A stretch of DNA of 64,000 nucleotides from the NCBI RefSeq assembly GCF_003334765.1, contig NZ_QOWT01000005.1; one strand, given 5' to 3'. Positions 48,001 through 57,000 of the stretch are shown here, piece by piece. Position numbers: made by a program. Source of the stretch: Escherichia coli (GTDB lineage: Bacteria; Pseudomonadota; Gammaproteobacteria; Enterobacterales; Enterobacteriaceae). Position 1 is the first letter of the stretch; the number at the start of each line of letters is the position of its first letter.

Positions 48001-51000
48001 CGCATTTGCTGATACTGTTGGGCATTTTTGGTTACATTATGCACCGCACGATGCCAGACATCTCATTCCCGGTGTTTTTACTTAATGGCCTGATTCCCTT
48101 TTTTATCTTTAGCAGTATCAGCAATCGTTCTGTAGGTGCTATTGAAGCGAATCAGGGGCTGTTTAATTATCGACCAGTAAAACCCATCGATACGATCATT
48201 GCGCGTGCATTGCTTGAGACACTGATTTACGTTGCTGTTTATATATTGCTTATGCTTATCGTCTGGATGGCAGGCGAATATTTCGAAATAACAAACTTTT
48301 TACAACTTGTGCTCACCTGGAGTCTGCTGATCATTCTTTCATGTGGCGTCGGCTTAATATTCATGGTCGTTGGCAAAACCTTCCCTGAAATGCAAAAGGT
48401 CCTGCCGATACTGCTTAAGCCGCTGTATTTCATCTCCTGCATCATGTTCCCTTTACACTCGATTCCAAAGCAATACTGGTCATATCTACTCTGGAACCCA
48501 TTAGTGCATGTCGTAGAGTTAAGCCGCGAGGCAGTTATGCCTGGCTATATCAGCGAAGGCGTGAGTCTGAACTACCTTGCAATGTTCACTCTGGTCACCC
48601 TGTTCATCGGTCTGGCGTTATACCGAACGCGTGAAGAGGCAATGCTGACATCATGATTAAAATTGAAAATTTGACGAAGTCATATCGCACGCCAGCGGGT
48701 CGACATTATGTCTTTAAGAATTTAAATATTGAAATCCCTTCAGGAAAAAGTGTTGCCTTTATTGGTCGCAACGGAGCGGGTAAATCAACGTTACTGAGAA
48801 TGATTGGCGGCATTGACCGCCCCGACAGTGGAAAGATCATCACTAATAAAACAATATCATGGCCAGTCGGCCTCGCAGGTGGATTTCAGGGAAGTTTAAC
48901 CGGACGCGAAAACGTAAAATTTGTTGCCCGGTTATACGCGAAGCAAGAAGAACTAAAAGAGAAAATTGAGTTTGTCGAAGAATTTGCCGAACTCGGTAAG
49001 TACTTCGATATGCCGATTAAAACTTACTCATCTGGTATGCGATCGCGTTTAGGCTTTGGTTTAAGCATGGCATTTAAGTTTGATTATTATATCGTCGATG
49101 AAGTAACCGCAGTCGGTGATGCCAGGTTTAAAGAAAAATGCGCTCAATTGTTTAAAGAAAGGCATAAAGAGTCTAGTTTTTTAATGGTTTCACATAGTTT
49201 GAATTCATTGAAAGAGTTTTGTGATGTGGCCATTGTGTTTAAGGATGATAATGCGGTTGGTTTTTATGAGGATGTTCATGAGGGGATAAAATCATACCAA
49301 ATAAATGAAAATACAACTATTAAGATTTAGGCCATTACGTGAAGATATAATTTACACTCCCCAAGTTAATACATATAAGTAATTATATTAATAAATATTT
49401 ATAAAAGGCATCTAAAGAATAGATGCTTAGAGCCACTTAAACTGCTGTATTGTCTAAATGTAAGAAATAACGAAATGGGTTTTTGGTGATTACTGTACTC
49501 AAAAGGAGTCAAGAATATGAAATCAATATTGTATTATTTAGAGCCACGTACAGAATTAAATGACAAATTATTTCGCTATGCAACACTACGCTCTTATCTA
49601 CTACCTGAAATTGATGGCCTTAGGATAGCTGATAAGAGCCTCGATTTTAAAATGATCGTTTCTCGTACGATTTATAATAAAGCAAAACAAAATAATTTAA
49701 AAATGGAGGGTATCGATTTTATAATTATTGATGAAGATGTATTTGAAAAGAACTCATATCTGAAGAATATTAATGTTAGTAATGAATTATATCATGGGAA
49801 TTTAAATATAAAGGCTAATGAAGAACTAAAATCAATCATATCTGCTTGCCTTCCTGTTGATTATAAACCAGATATTATTATTTCATATGAAAGCCCAGCT
49901 CCATTTTTTAAAGAGATATTTCCATCATCTTTACTTTTAAACGCTATGTTTGGAATTTTTTCAAGGGCACCATTTCCTGCATATGGTTTATTAGACCCAT
50001 GTGGTTTGTATGAATATTCATATCAATATAAATATGCTGATAAAATTCGTGCTGAGGAGATTTCAGAAGAAGAAAAGGAAGTTATAAAATTACTCAGAAG
50101 ACAAAGTTCAAGAGCACTTGCTGCTTATCATCCTCTCAAGAAATATATTTCATCATTATATGAAAAATATGATCGACTTGTTGTATTAGCATGTCAAGTG
50201 GATAACTATTTTTCTTATAATAGTTGTACCAATTATCCATCACAATATGCGATGGTGGAAGATGTTCTTTCTCAAGTTCCATCAAATATTGGTGTTATAG
50301 TTACAGAACATGGCTATAAAAGACAAATAAGTGACGAGCAAATTGAGTCTTTAAATGAAAAATACAGTAATTTTATATATTTTTCTAAAAAAGATGTATT
50401 CACACCAAGTCAATTTATTCTTCCTTATGTAGATGGTGCTTTATCAGTCTCGTCATCGATTGGTTATCAGGCTGCTTTATGGCAGATTCCATATTTTGGT
50501 CTTGGAAAATCACAAGTCGATGTACTCTGTTCAAATACATCATTAATGAGCTTCGTTAATGATGTTGAAAAAGGCATAAAGATTGATCGTGATAATATTC
50601 TTTATGTTTTACTTTCAAAAGTTCACTTATCACATAAAAATGATTTGTTTAATGGAAAATCTTATCTAAATAAGTTGAAGGATTTATTTAATAAGTTTAC
50701 CTCTAATTGCGACGAATATGAGTATTTTAACACTAAAAAAAGTATTGATGAAGTTCGAAAAGATATCATCTGTGGCAACAGAGAATGGTTACTGAAAAAA
50801 AACTTTATTGACTCAAAATTAGTTCCTGAAGTAGACCATTTACGTGTTGCAATGTCGCATTCAAAAGCGATCTCTTATGATCTTTTTGATACTCTTGTTG
50901 AACGTGATTTTGTTGAACCTCATGAATTATTTAATCTAATTGAATCCCGTGTACGTAATGAGTTAAACAATAAAAACTTCCCTTTCTATTATGTAAGACG

Positions 51001-54000: not shown

Positions 54001-57000
54001 ATTTACACAATATAGGAGATCTGGCTGGGTCTTTAGCAGCATTAAAAAGAGCATTTTTCATCAACCCTGATTATCCAAATACAATTGAGCATCTTAACTC
54101 GGTAAGAAATAAACTAAAAACTAAAAACTTTTAGTTTTTATGTATACTTGTGTGAGGAATGAATAGCAATATATCTCAATATCTAAGAGCTGGTTTTTAT
54201 ATCGTTCATAGTTATAATTTTTTTACTTTTATTTGTTTTCTTACTCTATCCCCATAATAAACCCCATTAACCTGCGTCTTCACCAATAAATACCCCCGAA
54301 ACTTCTTAAACAGTTTCATATCCGGTTTAAAATCGGCCTGCCAGAACTGGTGCAAATGCCCTTGATACGTCAAGCCTTTGATGTCGTACAGGGCATTGCC
54401 CATCACTTTGAGTGGTTTGTTGTGAATCAGCGCAGATATCCCCGCCGTACTGTTAATTGTCACCACCGCTTTTGCGTGGCGTAACAATTCCGGCATCGGG
54501 AGATCGTGCACATAAATGACTCGTTCCCCTAAGCCATATTCCTTACTCAACCGCTTAATTAATGGTCGATAGAGTCTGTGACCACGATCCATTGGATGGT
54601 GCTTGATCACCAAATAACTTTCTTTCGGTGCTTTACGTGAAAATGAGTACATGACTTCATTAATATAGTCACGCACATCGTTATAATTGCTGTGGTTACG
54701 AATCTGGCTATCGTTATACACCTGCAAAACGGCAAGATAATAACGCTGATCCAGCTCATTCATTAACCTCGGCAATACCTTACGCTGTGTTACCTTGTAA
54801 AGTTGCTTGCGCCAGTATGCACGAACCCAGCAACGTGCTTCATACCAGGGGGAAAACGATTTATGGTGGCGGTAGCGAGGGAACTCATGGCGGTAATGCC
54901 AGCCCATCAGGTAATACCACATCGCATGACCTATACGTTTCATCGTTGAAGGTTTTAAGTTCTCAACGTGCGGCGCAGGCATATCTGGTAACTTACGATA
55001 AAAATCCGGATCGCGCGGTAGCGATGAATATGCGTTTACTCCGCCTTCTTCAACGGTTATAAATTGCGGGCGTAAATATCCTTCTTCAAATGCCAGAAAG
55101 CGGAGCCCTTTCGACTTTGCCCAGCGTTTTGCTTCTTTATGCAATGGGCGACAGTCACCAAAACAGAGGATGGTATCAAAGTCATATTGCCGGTGGAGAT
55201 CCCGTAACCATCCGGGGAACTCTTTCGGCGTTTGGTAGTAGGCCAGGTATTGTCGATGGCGGCAGTAAAAACGATCCCCACCGTTGAATACAACATTCAC
55301 AGCGTTACGTCCTAATGACTCTAACCATTCGGCGACGTCATTGAAAAAAGGTCCCATCGGCCCCTGCAATAGCAGATATTTTTTACCGGATAATAAAACG
55401 GTTAGTGCATTACCTTGCATAAATAATTTGCGTAATAGTCAACTATGAAATTGTTTAGCCAAATCTGACCTTGCAGAACATAATTAATTTGCGGTAATAG
55501 CGTATTACCCGTCCCGCTTTTTTTCGGGTAATAAACATCGGCTTACGCGGCGTCTGGATTAAATATTCCGCAGCTTCCTCAACCGTAATAGGCTGTAGCC
55601 GTGTTGGGTGAATATATGTTGGGTAAACAATCAACGCCTGATAGATCAAGTCTGCTATCGTTAATTTTTGCTCGCGGCGCGGGCAATGATGTTCATCAAC
55701 GGTTAAACCCCAACCGGCATAGAAGGGCAGGCCGTAACAATGAACTTGCTTGCCATGTAATAACGCTTCAAACCCGGACAATGATGTCATGGTGTGCACT
55801 TCATCTGCGCGCTGAATGCATTGAATAATATCGGCGCCCAGTGCCTGATAATCAGCGAGTTCAGCAGTCAGTTCTGCCGGAATATCGCCCTTGCGATTCC
55901 CCACCAGTACATCCGGGTGCGGTTTATAAACAATGTAGGCGTGCGAATTGCGCTCGCGTACTGTGCGTAATAACTCAAGGTTGCTCTTAATCGAGACAGT
56001 GCCTGTTTTAATGGAGGCATCGTCCTCTACCTGACCCGGCACCAGGATAACTTTTTTATCTTTGGCTTCGGCTGGTAGAGAGAAATCGGCTCCCAGGTTG
56101 TACTTACTCAGTTTGCTTTCAACCAGTCGCTGGCGTAATTTTTCAGCTCGCATCTTCTGCGCCAGCGTTAGCTGGCTATGATTCAGCAGCACTTCCAGAT
56201 CGCTGGGGCGTGTGGCGTCATAGTAAATACCGCGTTTATCCAGCACCAGCGATAGCGGCGGCAGCAGGTCAGAGCCAAGTCCGGATGAACGCAGAAAACC
56301 ATCTTCCATTCGCCATAACGGCAGTGATTTTCGCTGCGCTTCGGCTCGCCATTGCTGTTCTCCCTTTACACCCCATACCACGCAGGCGCTCGCCGCAGTA
56401 CAGCGACGTGAAAAACTCAGCCGGTTTGTTGCCGTTTGCAAGAAAGGTTTCAGGATCGCTGACTTCCACAGCGTTAAGCCTGGCGCCCATAAATAACCAT
56501 CACGCTGTTGCAGATGTCGACGTTGTAATTGCAGCCATTGCAGCACGGTAAATAGATCGCTTACTTCTCCCGTTTGCGGATCGATATAGCGACAGTAACG
56601 CAGGTATGCAGCGGCAAAAAGTTCCTCCAGCGTGGCAGAACCGCGTCGGGCAGATAACAAAGCGGACTGTGGATGACGATCGTCGGTTAAACCCCAACCT
56701 GCATACCAAGGCTGGCCGAAACATGTTACTGGTTTTCCTGCCAGCAAGGCTTCAAAGCCGTACTGGGAGGTCACGACGTAAACCTGGGAAACGTGTCGCA
56801 ATAGCGACTGCGGGCTGACATTCTCGGCAATCAAACGTACTCGTTGCGTGGCACGCAGATCAGCGAAATAACCTGTTTTCTTTCCTTCCAGTACATCTGG
56901 GTGCACCTTCACCCAAATTTCGGCTTGAGGATTTTCCGCCATCGCGGCTTCCAGCATGGCAGCAAACTCATGCGGGCCAGCATTGCCATACGTCACTGAC

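What the first reader, a model, noticed from the sequence alone, without database searches (positions are those of the whole stretch)
49517..54134. Group 2 capsule locus with a minimal two-gene region 2 dominated by a 1169-aa multidomain protein
The serotype-specific slot between kpsT and kpsS holds only two genes, both far more AT-rich than the flanking kps genes, which points to horizontal origin. The large protein is long enough for several catalytic modules and has a possible HAD-like segment (YDLFDTLV). The second protein has a GxSxG hydrolase elbow. One plausible reading is a Kdo-containing polymer, since CMP-Kdo is already supplied by kpsF/kpsU, possibly with a ribofuranosyl-transfer and dephosphorylation step and an O-acylation step. 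I cannot assign the K type.
Basis: partly seen in the sequence, partly recalled or inferred. Interest (0 to 1): 0.7.

Follow-up and report, generated by a model that had tools for sequence, protein, structure and literature searches.

The report
E. coli K107 capsule gene pair

Summary
Two AT-rich genes lie between kpsT and kpsS of a standard group 2 kps cluster: a 1169-aa ORF and a 329/332-aa ORF.

The locus is already catalogued as K-type K107 (kTYPr, Nat Microbiol 2026). The small protein has the same MD5 as K107_9. The large one has the same length and domain coordinates as K107_10. The K107 polysaccharide has not been determined.

- Residues 443-1051 are homologous to the HAD phosphatase plus PRPP-dependent ribofuranosyltransferase pair of Bcs3 (E 6.5e-58) and 7SHG (E 9.5e-52).
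- The second protein is an α/β-hydrolase with a GASMGG elbow, an invariant Ser113/Asp185/His208 triad and a C-terminal TPR. It is most plausibly a capsule O-acetyltransferase.

The closest type with a known polymer is K16 (Ribf-Ribf-α-Kdo). It has the same two-gene layout at 29% identity.

One new point: all 139 relatives, including the K16 enzyme, lack the invariant QXXXD aspartate nucleophile of retaining β-Kdo transferases and carry Tyr, His or Gln there. Inverting, α-Kdo chemistry is therefore possible. Already known; low to moderate interest.

The parts
47840..47847 (+). ops (JUMPStart core) GGCGGTAG, 33 nt upstream of the kpsM start; expected RfaH loading site for read-through from region 3 into region 2
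   Evidence: Exact match; 4 matches in the window against 1.3 expected by chance, so position rather than count is the argument. The role is inferred from established knowledge of group 2 kps regulation, not tested here.
47880..48656 (+). kpsM, ABC transporter permease (region 3)
   Evidence: RefSeq annotation of an identical locus. The mechanical ORF list extends it to a TTG at 47820.
48653..49330 (+). kpsT, ABC transporter ATPase (region 3)
49517..53026 (+). Region 2 gene 1 (kTYPr K107_10): 1169-aa three-module capsule polymerase candidate
   Evidence: ORF. Same length and InterPro domain coordinates as K107_10. 100% DNA identity to WP_000836184.1 loci. 63 homologues found.
49517..50821 (+). 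Module 1 (aa 1-435): GT-B, GT99-like putative Kdo transferase. E125 (YE), Q227 and H265 are conserved, but Tyr231 sits where the QXXXD Asp nucleophile should be
50843..51499 (+). Module 2 (aa ~443-661): HAD-type phosphoribosyl 5-phosphatase (CrpP-like); motif I is D455-L-F-D458-T
   Evidence: phmmer to Bcs3, E 3.9e-28. Profile to Bcs3 6.5e-58 and 7SHG 9.5e-52. Weak HAD hits in NCBIfam and Pfam. Invariant D455, D458, D571, K604 and D633. Bcs3 domain limits.
51614..52669 (+). Module 3 (aa ~700-1051): glycan phosphoribosyltransferase (CriT/gPRT-like, PRPP donor); conserved FLSRDG (R744, D745) and VDIGYSGSMQ (D884, G886, Q892)
   Evidence: The profile alignment runs to position 1051 against 7SHG residue 633 of 648, and FLSRDG / VD(I/V)G(Y/W)xGxxQ align. 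Invariant columns.
52670..53026 (+). C-terminal tail (aa 1052-1169) with the conserved basic motif RKxxKLxxxPYxFFxDSKxP; probable membrane or complex association
   Evidence: Consensus and near-invariant K1138 and P1143. The role is inferred by analogy with the electropositive C-terminal module of KrkA (Fig. S3 legend) and the amphipathic C-terminal helices of Bcs3.
53035..53056 (+). Terminator-like hairpin followed by a T-run, between the two region 2 genes
   Evidence: 9-bp stem, 5 GC pairs. The total number of such sites in the region is no more than chance, so function is unproven.
53145..54134 (+). Region 2 gene 2 (kTYPr K107_9, 329 aa): α/β-hydrolase domain (aa ~21-230; S113/D185/H208, elbow GASMGG) plus C-terminal TPR (aa ~241-329); putative capsule O-acetyltransferase
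   Evidence: MD5 e84dbe74... is identical to K107_9. Invariant residues. AF2 pLDDT 84. Foldseek hits are serine hydrolases, E 1e-6. TPR profile hits, E 4.6e-15.
54212..55420 (-). kpsS (β-Kdo transferase that starts the glycolipid anchor; region 1)
   Evidence: hhalign shows its QVYND / HHP motifs.
55455..57482 (-). kpsC (dual GT107 β-Kdo transferase that makes the poly-Kdo linker)
   Evidence: The DQTFND160 motif is visible.
57479..62132 (-). kpsU (CMP-Kdo synthetase), kpsD, kpsE and kpsF (arabinose-5-P isomerase): CMP-Kdo supply and export
   Evidence: RefSeq annotation of an identical locus; ORFs.

Best explanation
Region 2 of this group 2 kps cluster is the K107 genotype cassette. The 1169-aa protein is most likely a single-polypeptide capsule polymerase that extends the KpsS/KpsC-made poly-Kdo glycolipid with a repeat of Kdo and ribofuranose.

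The proposed cycle has three steps.
1. Module 1, a GT99-like GT-B domain, transfers Kdo from CMP-β-Kdo, which kpsF/kpsU and housekeeping genes supply.
2. Module 3 transfers ribofuranose-5-phosphate from PRPP onto the chain end.
3. Module 2, the HAD domain, removes the 5-phosphate.

Both donors are housekeeping metabolites, so no sugar-nucleotide genes are needed. That explains why the locus has only two genes.

The 329-aa α/β-hydrolase/TPR protein most likely O-acetylates the polymer through an acyl-Ser113 intermediate.

Transcription probably reads through from the region 3 promoter by way of the ops/RfaH site upstream of kpsM.

Shown here: gene content, identity with K107, folds, homologies and conserved residues. 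Inferred: donor and acceptor specificities, linkage, anomeric form, number of riboses per repeat, and acetylation.
For: - Identity with the catalogued K107: the MD5 of the 329-aa protein equals that of K107_9. The large protein has the same 1169-aa length and the same HAD coordinates (450-655/661) as K107_10.
- kTYPr places K107 between K16 and K74 in the set predicted to make Ribf-Kdo polymers.
- Modules 2 and 3: profile E 6.5e-58 to Bcs3 residues 380-808 and 9.5e-52 to the 7SHG ribofuranosyl transferase over residues 27-633. Catalytic-site motifs are conserved.
- Same architecture as KrkA of K13, which was shown in vitro to add both Kdo and ribose on its own (PMC12887879).
- Same two-gene layout as K16, confirmed by an exact MD5 match to K16_7 and 29% identity over the full length. 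The K16 polymer is Ribf-Ribf-Kdo, and kTYPr confirmed that composition by mass spectrometry.
- The gene pair is conserved inside kps-like clusters of Kluyvera intermedia and Cupriavidus taiwanensis.
- ORF-B has an invariant triad and a GASMGG elbow, an α/β-hydrolase fold, and precedents in CsaC, CssE and K15 ORF5.
- An ops element lies at 47840.
Against: - No K107 polysaccharide structure or enzyme assay exists; kTYPr lists the type without a known polymer.
- Module 1 has no sequence-level similarity to any solved Kdo transferase, even as a profile. It lacks the invariant QXXXD Asp and the HP motif. CMP-Kdo as donor therefore rests on fold and on the K16/K13 analogy.
- ORF-B matches generic serine hydrolases, and CsaC was not among the top 50 Foldseek hits or the profile hits. 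An esterase or scaffold role is not excluded.
- The terminator-like hairpin between the genes may uncouple expression of ORF-B.
Confidence: 0.78

Rival explanations
1. Module 1 transfers a different CMP-activated ulosonic acid (for example a nonulosonic acid, as the KpsS-like Pse transferase KpsS1/GT118 does) or another sugar. The polymer would then be ribose plus a non-Kdo acid.
For: The QXXXD Asp and the HP motif, which define Kdo-transferase families GT99, GT107 and GT140, are absent. There is no sequence similarity to any solved Kdo transferase. A related fold is reported to transfer Pse (PMC12887879 discussion).
Against: Region 2 holds no nonulosonic-acid or other sugar-nucleotide synthesis genes, and E. 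coli housekeeping metabolism supplies CMP-Kdo but not CMP-Pse or CMP-Leg. The K16 enzyme has the same motif pattern, and K16 polymer was shown to contain Kdo and ribose. Q227, the counterpart of the Kdo-carboxylate-binding Gln, is invariant.
Confidence: 0.07
2. The second gene encodes a hydrolase (an esterase that trims O-acyl groups, or a thioesterase-like enzyme) or a non-catalytic TPR adaptor that organises the biosynthetic complex, rather than an O-acetyltransferase.
For: The best structural matches are hydrolases: MenH, monoacylglycerol lipases and carboxylesterases. CsaC is not detected by sequence or among the top Foldseek hits. TPR domains mediate protein-protein contacts. No acetylation data exist for K107.
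Confidence: 0.3
3. The cassette is a decayed or non-expressed remnant, and the strain makes no K107-specific capsule.
For: Both genes are annotated only as hypothetical. A terminator-like hairpin follows ORF-A.
Against: Both ORFs are intact and full length, and all catalytic-type residues are conserved. The cassette is 99% or more identical in 22 complete genomes from diverse sources, and its 90%-identity protein cluster has 848 member sequences. All eight kps genes are intact. kTYPr reports K107 as associated with invasive disease.
Confidence: 0.04

Closest known systems
kTYPr K-type K107 (Miravet-Verde et al., Nat Microbiol 2026, PMC13171606; reference GCF_035831355, NZ_JAYMNE010000021.1:75644..89898)
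   Same: This is the same locus. K107_9 is identical by MD5. K107_10 has the same length (1169 aa) and the same domain coordinates. Both are lineage G2A with two K-specific genes.
   Different: The window's large protein differs from the catalogue reference by at least one residue, because the MD5 differs. The catalogue gives no polysaccharide structure or biochemistry.
E. coli K16 region 2 (K16_8 polymerase of 1137 aa plus K16_7 α/β-hydrolase-TPR of 345 aa); polymer →2)-β-Ribf-(1→3)-β-Ribf-(1→5)-α-Kdop-(2→
   Same: Same two-gene layout between kpsT and kpsS. Same three-module order plus C-terminal tail. Same Q-x-D-x-Y motif in place of QXXXD. The partner protein has the same α/β-hydrolase plus TPR design.
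   Different: Only 29% identity for the polymerase and about 25% for the partner. K16 has VTNY where K107 has VTEH. The K107 partner has a shorter TPR region, 241-329 against 145-343. Linkages and ribose number for K107 are unknown.
KrkA of E. coli K13/K20/K23 (GT140 Kdo transferase plus ribosyltransferase; PDB 9YFX-9YFZ; PMC12887879)
   Same: A single large polypeptide in the order Kdo transferase, HAD phosphatase, gPRT, basic C-terminal tail. The YE general-base motif (E102 in KrkA, E125 here), the Gln (Q189 / Q227) and the His (H227 / H265) sit at the same 38-residue spacing.
WbbB GT99 module (Raoultella terrigena; PDB 5FA0, 8CSB-F)
   Different: 13% identity. WbbB adds a single chain-terminating β-Kdo by double displacement through Asp232 of its QXXXD motif, and the equivalent position here is Tyr. 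WbbB is an O-antigen terminator, not a capsule polymerase module.
Bcs3 of Haemophilus influenzae type b (PDB 8A0C/9H50) and the 7SHG ribofuranosyl transferase
   Same: Homologous HAD phosphatase (CrpP) followed by a PRPP-dependent ribose-5-P transferase (CriT), in the same order, with conserved FDxFDTL, FxSRDG and VDxGxxGxxQ motifs.
   Different: The N-terminal module of Bcs3 is a TagF-like ribitol-phosphate transferase (CroT, residues 1-373), not a Kdo-transferase-like domain. The Bcs3 SH3b domain was not detected here.
α/β-hydrolase-fold capsule O-acetyltransferases CsaC (NmA, PDB 6YUO), CssE (NmC) and E. coli K15 ORF5
   Same: α/β-hydrolase fold and Ser-Asp-His triad in the same order and with similar spacing: CsaC S114/D198/H228 against S113/D185/H208 here. 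GXSXGG elbow: K15 GGSMGG against GASMGG here.
   Different: No significant sequence match to CsaC. The C-terminal TPR extension seen here is not described for CsaC, CssE or K15 ORF5 in the passages read. Acetyl-CoA use is untested.

Membership tests
E. coli group 2 (2A) kps capsule locus | Region 3 kpsMT and region 1 kpsFEDUCS flank a serotype-specific region 2, sited beside the gsp genes | tested here: met
   Gene order; ops element upstream of kpsM.
kTYPr K-type K107 | K-specific gene content equals K107_9 plus K107_10 | tested here: met
   The MD5 of the 329-aa protein is identical to K107_9. The 1169-aa protein matches K107_10 in length and in HAD coordinates 450-655/661 but not in MD5, so at least one substitution is present. 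The kTYPr HMMs themselves were not run.
Retaining β-Kdo glycosyltransferases (GT99 / GT107 / GT140) | Modified GT-B fold shared by WbbB, KpsC and KrkA | tested here: met
Retaining β-Kdo glycosyltransferases (GT99 / GT107 / GT140) | Invariant QXXXD motif whose Asp is the covalent nucleophile (KpsC D160, WbbB D232, KrkA D193) | tested here: not met
   Q227 is invariant, but position Q+4 is Tyr in 128, His in 6 and Gln in 5 of 139 relatives, never Asp or Glu. The register rests on hhalign to the window's KpsC (Q156=Q227, D160=Y231) and on the same 38-residue Gln-to-His spacing as KrkA. The role of the Asp is from PMC10148158. An Asp or Glu at Q+2 occurs in 109 of 139 and could substitute; this cannot be judged without coordinates.
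Retaining β-Kdo glycosyltransferases (GT99 / GT107 / GT140) | HP motif that binds the CMP phosphate | tested here: inconclusive
   H265 aligns with the His of HP but is followed by Gly. Across the family the position is Tyr in 92, His in 43 and Asp in 4, and Pro follows in only one sequence.
Retaining β-Kdo glycosyltransferases (GT99 / GT107 / GT140) | Sequence membership in the CAZy family or Pfam PF05159 | tested here: not met
   No Pfam hit for this protein and no PDB hit even with a profile. hhalign to KpsS gives only 58% probability. Some distant homologues carry precomputed PF05159 hits.
Retaining β-Kdo glycosyltransferases (GT99 / GT107 / GT140) | CMP-β-Kdo donor, β-Kdo product | not testable with these tools
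   Requires an enzyme assay or NMR of the polymer.
Glycan ribofuranosyltransferase (gPRT plus HAD phosphatase; Bcs3 CriT/CrpP, 7SHG, KrkA C-terminal region) | Homology over both domains in the order HAD then gPRT | tested here: met
   Profile E 9.5e-52 over 7SHG residues 27-633 of 648, and 6.5e-58 to Bcs3 residues 380-808.
Glycan ribofuranosyltransferase (gPRT plus HAD phosphatase; Bcs3 CriT/CrpP, 7SHG, KrkA C-terminal region) | Catalytic residues: the HAD nucleophile Asp (Bcs3 D386) and the CriT Asp in the SRD motif (Bcs3 D680) | tested here: met
   D455 in SYDLFDTL aligns with the FDIFDTL of Bcs3 and is invariant. FLSRD745G aligns with the FISRDG of Bcs3. Bcs3 E818 and E874 were not mapped.
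Glycan ribofuranosyltransferase (gPRT plus HAD phosphatase; Bcs3 CriT/CrpP, 7SHG, KrkA C-terminal region) | PRPP as donor, followed by 5-dephosphorylation | not testable with these tools
   Requires an in vitro assay.
α/β-hydrolase-fold capsule O-acetyltransferases (CsaC / CssE type) | α/β-hydrolase fold with a Ser-Asp-His triad and a GXSXGG nucleophile elbow | tested here: met
   Invariant G111, S113, G115, G116, D185 and H208; α/β-hydrolase fold; family definition.
α/β-hydrolase-fold capsule O-acetyltransferases (CsaC / CssE type) | Detectable homology to CsaC or CssE | tested here: not met
   Not among the PDB sequence or profile hits or the top 50 Foldseek hits. There is only a faint NCBIfam XcbB/CpsF hit, E 0.012, far below its cutoff.
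α/β-hydrolase-fold capsule O-acetyltransferases (CsaC / CssE type) | Acetyl-CoA-dependent O-acetylation of the polymer | not testable with these tools
   Requires an assay or NMR of wild-type against mutant capsule.

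The most novel reading that the evidence does not exclude
The N-terminal modules of the K107 and K16 polymerases, and of about 140 relatives across Proteobacteria, form a distinct and uncharacterised family of Kdo transferases. They keep the GT99-like fold, the carboxylate-binding Gln and a Glu base. They have replaced the 'invariant' QXXXD aspartate nucleophile with Tyr, His or Gln and have lost the HP motif. They would work either by single-displacement inversion, giving α-Kdo as reported for K16, or through a non-Asp nucleophile (Tyr231, as in sialidases, or Asp229). 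On this reading K107 capsule would contain α-linked Kdo. These would also be the enzymes whose family assignment the K15 paper left open for the α-Kdo transferases of K6, K15 and K16.
Probability: 0.4. Interest if true: 0.55.

Novelty: already known. Interest (0 to 1): 0.3.

Why it matters
K107 is one of the genotype-defined E. coli capsule types that kTYPr found in 2026. That study associated it with invasive disease.

The evidence that two genes plus housekeeping CMP-Kdo and PRPP probably suffice to make the polymer gives a compact target for enzymatic or recombinant synthesis of the antigen, and for vaccine, diagnostic or phage-receptor work.

The missing aspartate nucleophile, shared with the α-Kdo-containing K16 type, offers a concrete sequence marker for separating retaining from possibly inverting capsule Kdo transferases. 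If confirmed, it would let the anomeric form of Kdo be predicted from sequence in many uncharacterised capsule loci.

As a genome-scan finding, however, the locus and its predicted chemistry are already in the literature.

Tried and rejected
- Pfam-A on both proteins gave nothing significant: best i-E 0.12 for a HAD model and 0.0026 for Abhydrolase_1. NCBIfam gave only sub-threshold HAD and XcbB/CpsF hits.
- PADLOC gave no hit, so a defence-system reading was dropped.
- A PDB sequence search with the N-terminal profile found no Kdo transferase. The relationship is visible only by fold.
- I tried to map the locus to the Kaptive KL nomenclature of Gladstone et al. by searching their supplements for six accession numbers. 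There were no hits, so the KL number remains unassigned.
- I tried to identify the K-types of two other E. coli relatives (P0141 at 1158 aa, P0192 at 1150 aa) from the kTYPr tables. This was inconclusive.
- An exact MD5 match for K16_8 was not found among the 15 cluster members listed. K16 identity was established through the neighbouring gene instead.
- The ST131 'atypical KL112' preprint proved irrelevant to this locus.
- Promoter-like and terminator-like site counts in the region are no more than chance. Only the positions of the ops site and of one hairpin are reported.

Full report
**Observation.** The window carries a complete group 2 capsule (kps) cluster next to the gsp type II secretion genes.
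- On the + strand lie kpsM (47880-48656) and kpsT (48653-49330), then two ORFs at 49517-53026 (1169 aa) and 53136/53145-54134 (332 or 329 aa).
- On the - strand follow kpsS, kpsC, kpsU, kpsD, kpsE and kpsF (54212-62132).
- Nothing else of 150 aa or more lies between kpsT and kpsS.
- GC is 0.29-0.36 across the two genes, 0.43-0.45 in kpsMT and about 0.49-0.55 in region 1.
- The HAD-like YDLFDTLV segment and the GxSxG elbow (GASMGG) are both present and both invariant among relatives.

The only correction concerns the second gene, which RefSeq and the published catalogue start at the ATG at 53145.

**Identity of the locus.** The 4.9-kb region occurs at 99% identity or more in 22 of 5426 complete E. 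coli genomes. It is always chromosomal and both genes are always annotated 'hypothetical protein'. The hosts include O25b:H4-ST131 strains and isolates from human, chicken-meat, river and bird sources.

The kTYPr catalogue (PMC13171606, April 2026) lists a genotype K107 in lineage G2A.
- K107_10 is 1169 aa with HAD-like coordinates 450-655/661.
- K107_9 is 329 aa with an α/β-hydrolase region (21-144) and a TPR region (241-329).
- The MD5 digest printed there for K107_9 (e84dbe74...) equals the digest of the window's 329-aa protein.
- The digest of the large protein differs, so at least one substitution is present. A 1169-aa member of the same 90%-identity cluster differs from the window protein at four positions.

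This locus is therefore K107. It is a type defined from genomes, with no serological reference strain and no reported polysaccharide. That study reports K107 as one of two newly defined types with invasive potential.

The same paper states that a set of clusters (K13_K23 to K19) shares an ORF of more than 1,100 aa. [quoted passage not shown] Its identity table places K107 between K16 (28% identity) and K74 (25%).

**The large protein, tested independently.** Pfam and NCBIfam give only sub-threshold HAD hits.

*Modules 2 and 3.*
- A single-sequence PDB search matches residues 424-786 to the Hib capsule polymerase Bcs3 (E 3.9e-28).
- A profile of 46 full-length homologues raises this to 6.5e-58. 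The same profile also matches the 7SHG 'ribofuranosyl transferase' at 9.5e-52, over profile positions 443-1051 and 7SHG residues 27-633 of 648.
- In Bcs3 the matched stretch comprises the HAD phosphatase CrpP (residues 374-591) and the PRPP-dependent ribose-5-phosphate transferase CriT (residues 592-1036).
- The aligned motifs are SYD455LFDTL against FDIFDTL, FLSRD745G against FISRDG, and VDIGYSGSMQ against VDVGWKGTIQ. They include residues shown to be catalytic in Bcs3 and are invariant or nearly so in the family.

*Module 1.*
- Residues 1-435 have no sequence match in the PDB, even as a profile.
- An AlphaFold2 model built on 27 homologues is very confident (pLDDT 95, pTM 0.92).

*Architecture.* The order is Kdo-transferase-like module, HAD phosphatase, phosphoribosyltransferase, then a basic C-terminal tail carrying a conserved RKxxKLxxxPYxFFxDS motif. 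This is the architecture of KrkA from K13, which was shown in vitro to add both Kdo and ribose by itself.

Both presumed donors are supplied without any region 2 gene: CMP-Kdo by kpsF/kpsU and housekeeping metabolism, and PRPP by housekeeping metabolism. This explains the minimal region 2.

**Closest type with a known polymer.** A homologue search seeded with a distant relative recovered an E. coli cluster of 1137-aa proteins.
- Its genomic locus has the order kpsM-kpsT-[1137 aa]-[TPR protein]-kpsS-kpsC.
- The 345-aa form of the neighbouring protein has exactly the MD5 of kTYPr K16_7. This is therefore a K16-type locus.
- The K16 polymerase is 29% identical to the window protein over its full length.
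- K16_7 has the same α/β-hydrolase plus TPR design.
- K16 polymer is →2)-β-Ribf-(1→3)-β-Ribf-(1→5)-α-Kdop-(2→. kTYPr confirmed its trisaccharide composition by mass spectrometry.

The same gene pair sits in kps-type clusters of two other species. In Kluyvera intermedia the layout is the same and identity is about 71%. In Cupriavidus taiwanensis identity is about 46-51%. The cassette is thus a mobile two-gene module, which fits its low GC content.

**The small protein.** Eleven relatives share invariant G111-x-S113-M-G-G, D185 and H208, in the canonical α/β-hydrolase order.
- The AF2 model (pLDDT 84) matches serine hydrolases such as MenH, monoacylglycerol lipases and carboxylesterases (E about 1e-6).
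- The C-terminal 90 residues are TPR repeats (profile E 4.6e-15).
- One of the two known families of capsule O-acetyltransferases is α/β-hydrolase-fold: CsaC (S114/D198/H228), CssE and K15 ORF5 (elbow GGSMGG).
- The most likely role is therefore O-acetylation of the polymer.
- No direct homology to CsaC was detected, and K107 acetylation is unknown. I put this at roughly 0.5-0.6, with an esterase or scaffold role as the rival.

**A departure from the known Kdo transferases.** In GT99, GT107 and GT140 an invariant QXXXD motif supplies the aspartate that forms the covalent Kdo-enzyme intermediate: KpsC D160, WbbB D232 and KrkA D193. The D160A variant of KpsC is inactive.

Three lines fix the register in the window protein.
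- hhalign against the window's own KpsC aligns KpsC Q156 with Q227, D160 with Y231, and the His of its HP motif with H265. The probability of this alignment is low (20%).
- KrkA fragments recoverable from published primers and peptides give the same register. DIILVGYE102 corresponds to DIIISYE125, and FVGQ189TLND193 to LACQ227VDNY231. The Gln-to-His spacing is 38 residues in both proteins.

In an alignment of 139 full-length relatives, including the K16 enzyme, the conservation pattern is as follows.

| Position | Residues found (of 139) |
|---|---|
| Gln (Q227) | invariant |
| Q+4 (nucleophile position) | Tyr 128, His 6, Gln 5; never Asp or Glu |
| Q+2 | Asp or Glu 109 |
| His position (H265) | Tyr 92, His 43, Asp 4; Pro follows in only one sequence |
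| Glu of the YE motif (E125) | kept in 130 |

The conserved base without a conserved acidic nucleophile fits a single-displacement, inverting mechanism. K16 is one of the few capsules reported to contain α-Kdo. [quoted passage not shown]

I therefore do not file module 1 as a member of the retaining β-Kdo GT families. It shares their fold and probably their donor. Whether it retains, through D229 or Y231, or inverts is open. Without model coordinates I could not measure which side chain faces the donor site.

**Regulatory context.**
- The ops core GGCGGTAG lies at 47840-47847, 33 nt before kpsM. This is where RfaH-dependent read-through into region 2 is expected from established knowledge of group 2 clusters.
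- A terminator-like hairpin with a T-run sits immediately after the large gene (53035-53056). Such sites are no more frequent here than chance, so its function is unproven.

The locus and its predicted domain functions were published in 2026, so novelty is 'already known' and interest is low to moderate.

What remains open:
- the K107 polymer structure;
- the role of the α/β-hydrolase/TPR partner;
- the mechanism of a Kdo-transferase-like module that lacks the family's defining nucleophile.

Noticed in passing
window 49517-50821 (aa 227-231 and 263-266 of the 1169-aa protein); relatives P0002-P0194 and P0226: All 139 full-length relatives, including the K16 enzyme, have Q-x-[D/E/S]-x-[Y/H/Q] where retaining β-Kdo transferases have the invariant QXXXD nucleophile. 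The HP motif is replaced by H/Y-x. The Glu of the YE motif is kept in 130 of 139.
   Followed up: partly
window 47840-47847 (+): The ops/JUMPStart core GGCGGTAG lies 33 nt upstream of the annotated kpsM start. The mechanical ORF list extends kpsM over it to a TTG at 47820, which is probably not the real start.
   Followed up: partly
window 53035-53056 (+): A 9-bp GC-rich hairpin followed by TTTTTT sits directly after the stop of the large gene and 90 nt before the second gene. It could attenuate expression of the α/β-hydrolase gene unless RfaH-modified polymerase reads through.
   Followed up: no
window 46824-47880: An untranslated, very AT-rich stretch of about 1 kb (GC 0.30-0.39) lies between the last gsp gene (yghD/gspM) and kpsM. 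It is presumably the region 3 promoter and long leader; it was not analysed further.
   Followed up: no
L004 (Kluyvera intermedia MWPR01000008.1) 1-2518 and 3852-13321: The syntenic kpsMT-[1166 aa]-[331 aa]-kpsSC cassette (about 71% identity) lies immediately beside P2-like phage tail genes (GpU, GpD, Ogr). No kpsU or kpsD gene is called between kpsC and the 383-aa gene called next to the SIS-domain (kpsF-like) gene. This may bear on how the cassette moves.
   Followed up: no
L003 (Cupriavidus taiwanensis LT984814.1) 3303-17942: A kps-like cluster on a 2.8-Mb secondary replicon carries the same polymerase/α/β-hydrolase pair in divergent orientation. It also has its own DAHP-synthase-family (KdsA-like) and SIS-domain genes, which fits a Kdo-containing polymer outside the Enterobacteriaceae.
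   Followed up: no
window 52670-53023 (aa 1052-1169): The low-complexity Pro/Thr/Gln-rich linker is followed by a conserved basic motif, RKxxKLxxxPYxFFxDSKxP, at the extreme C-terminus. The K16 enzyme shares it (RKREKFIKNPELFFYDSKK). It is probably a membrane- or complex-targeting tail.
   Followed up: partly
window 62169-64000, and L001 25601-28881: Downstream of kpsF, the identical RefSeq locus annotates an IS110 remnant and CP4-57-like island genes (DUF4942, CbtA/CbeA toxin-antitoxin, RadC). The kps cluster therefore abuts a degraded mobile element.
   Followed up: no
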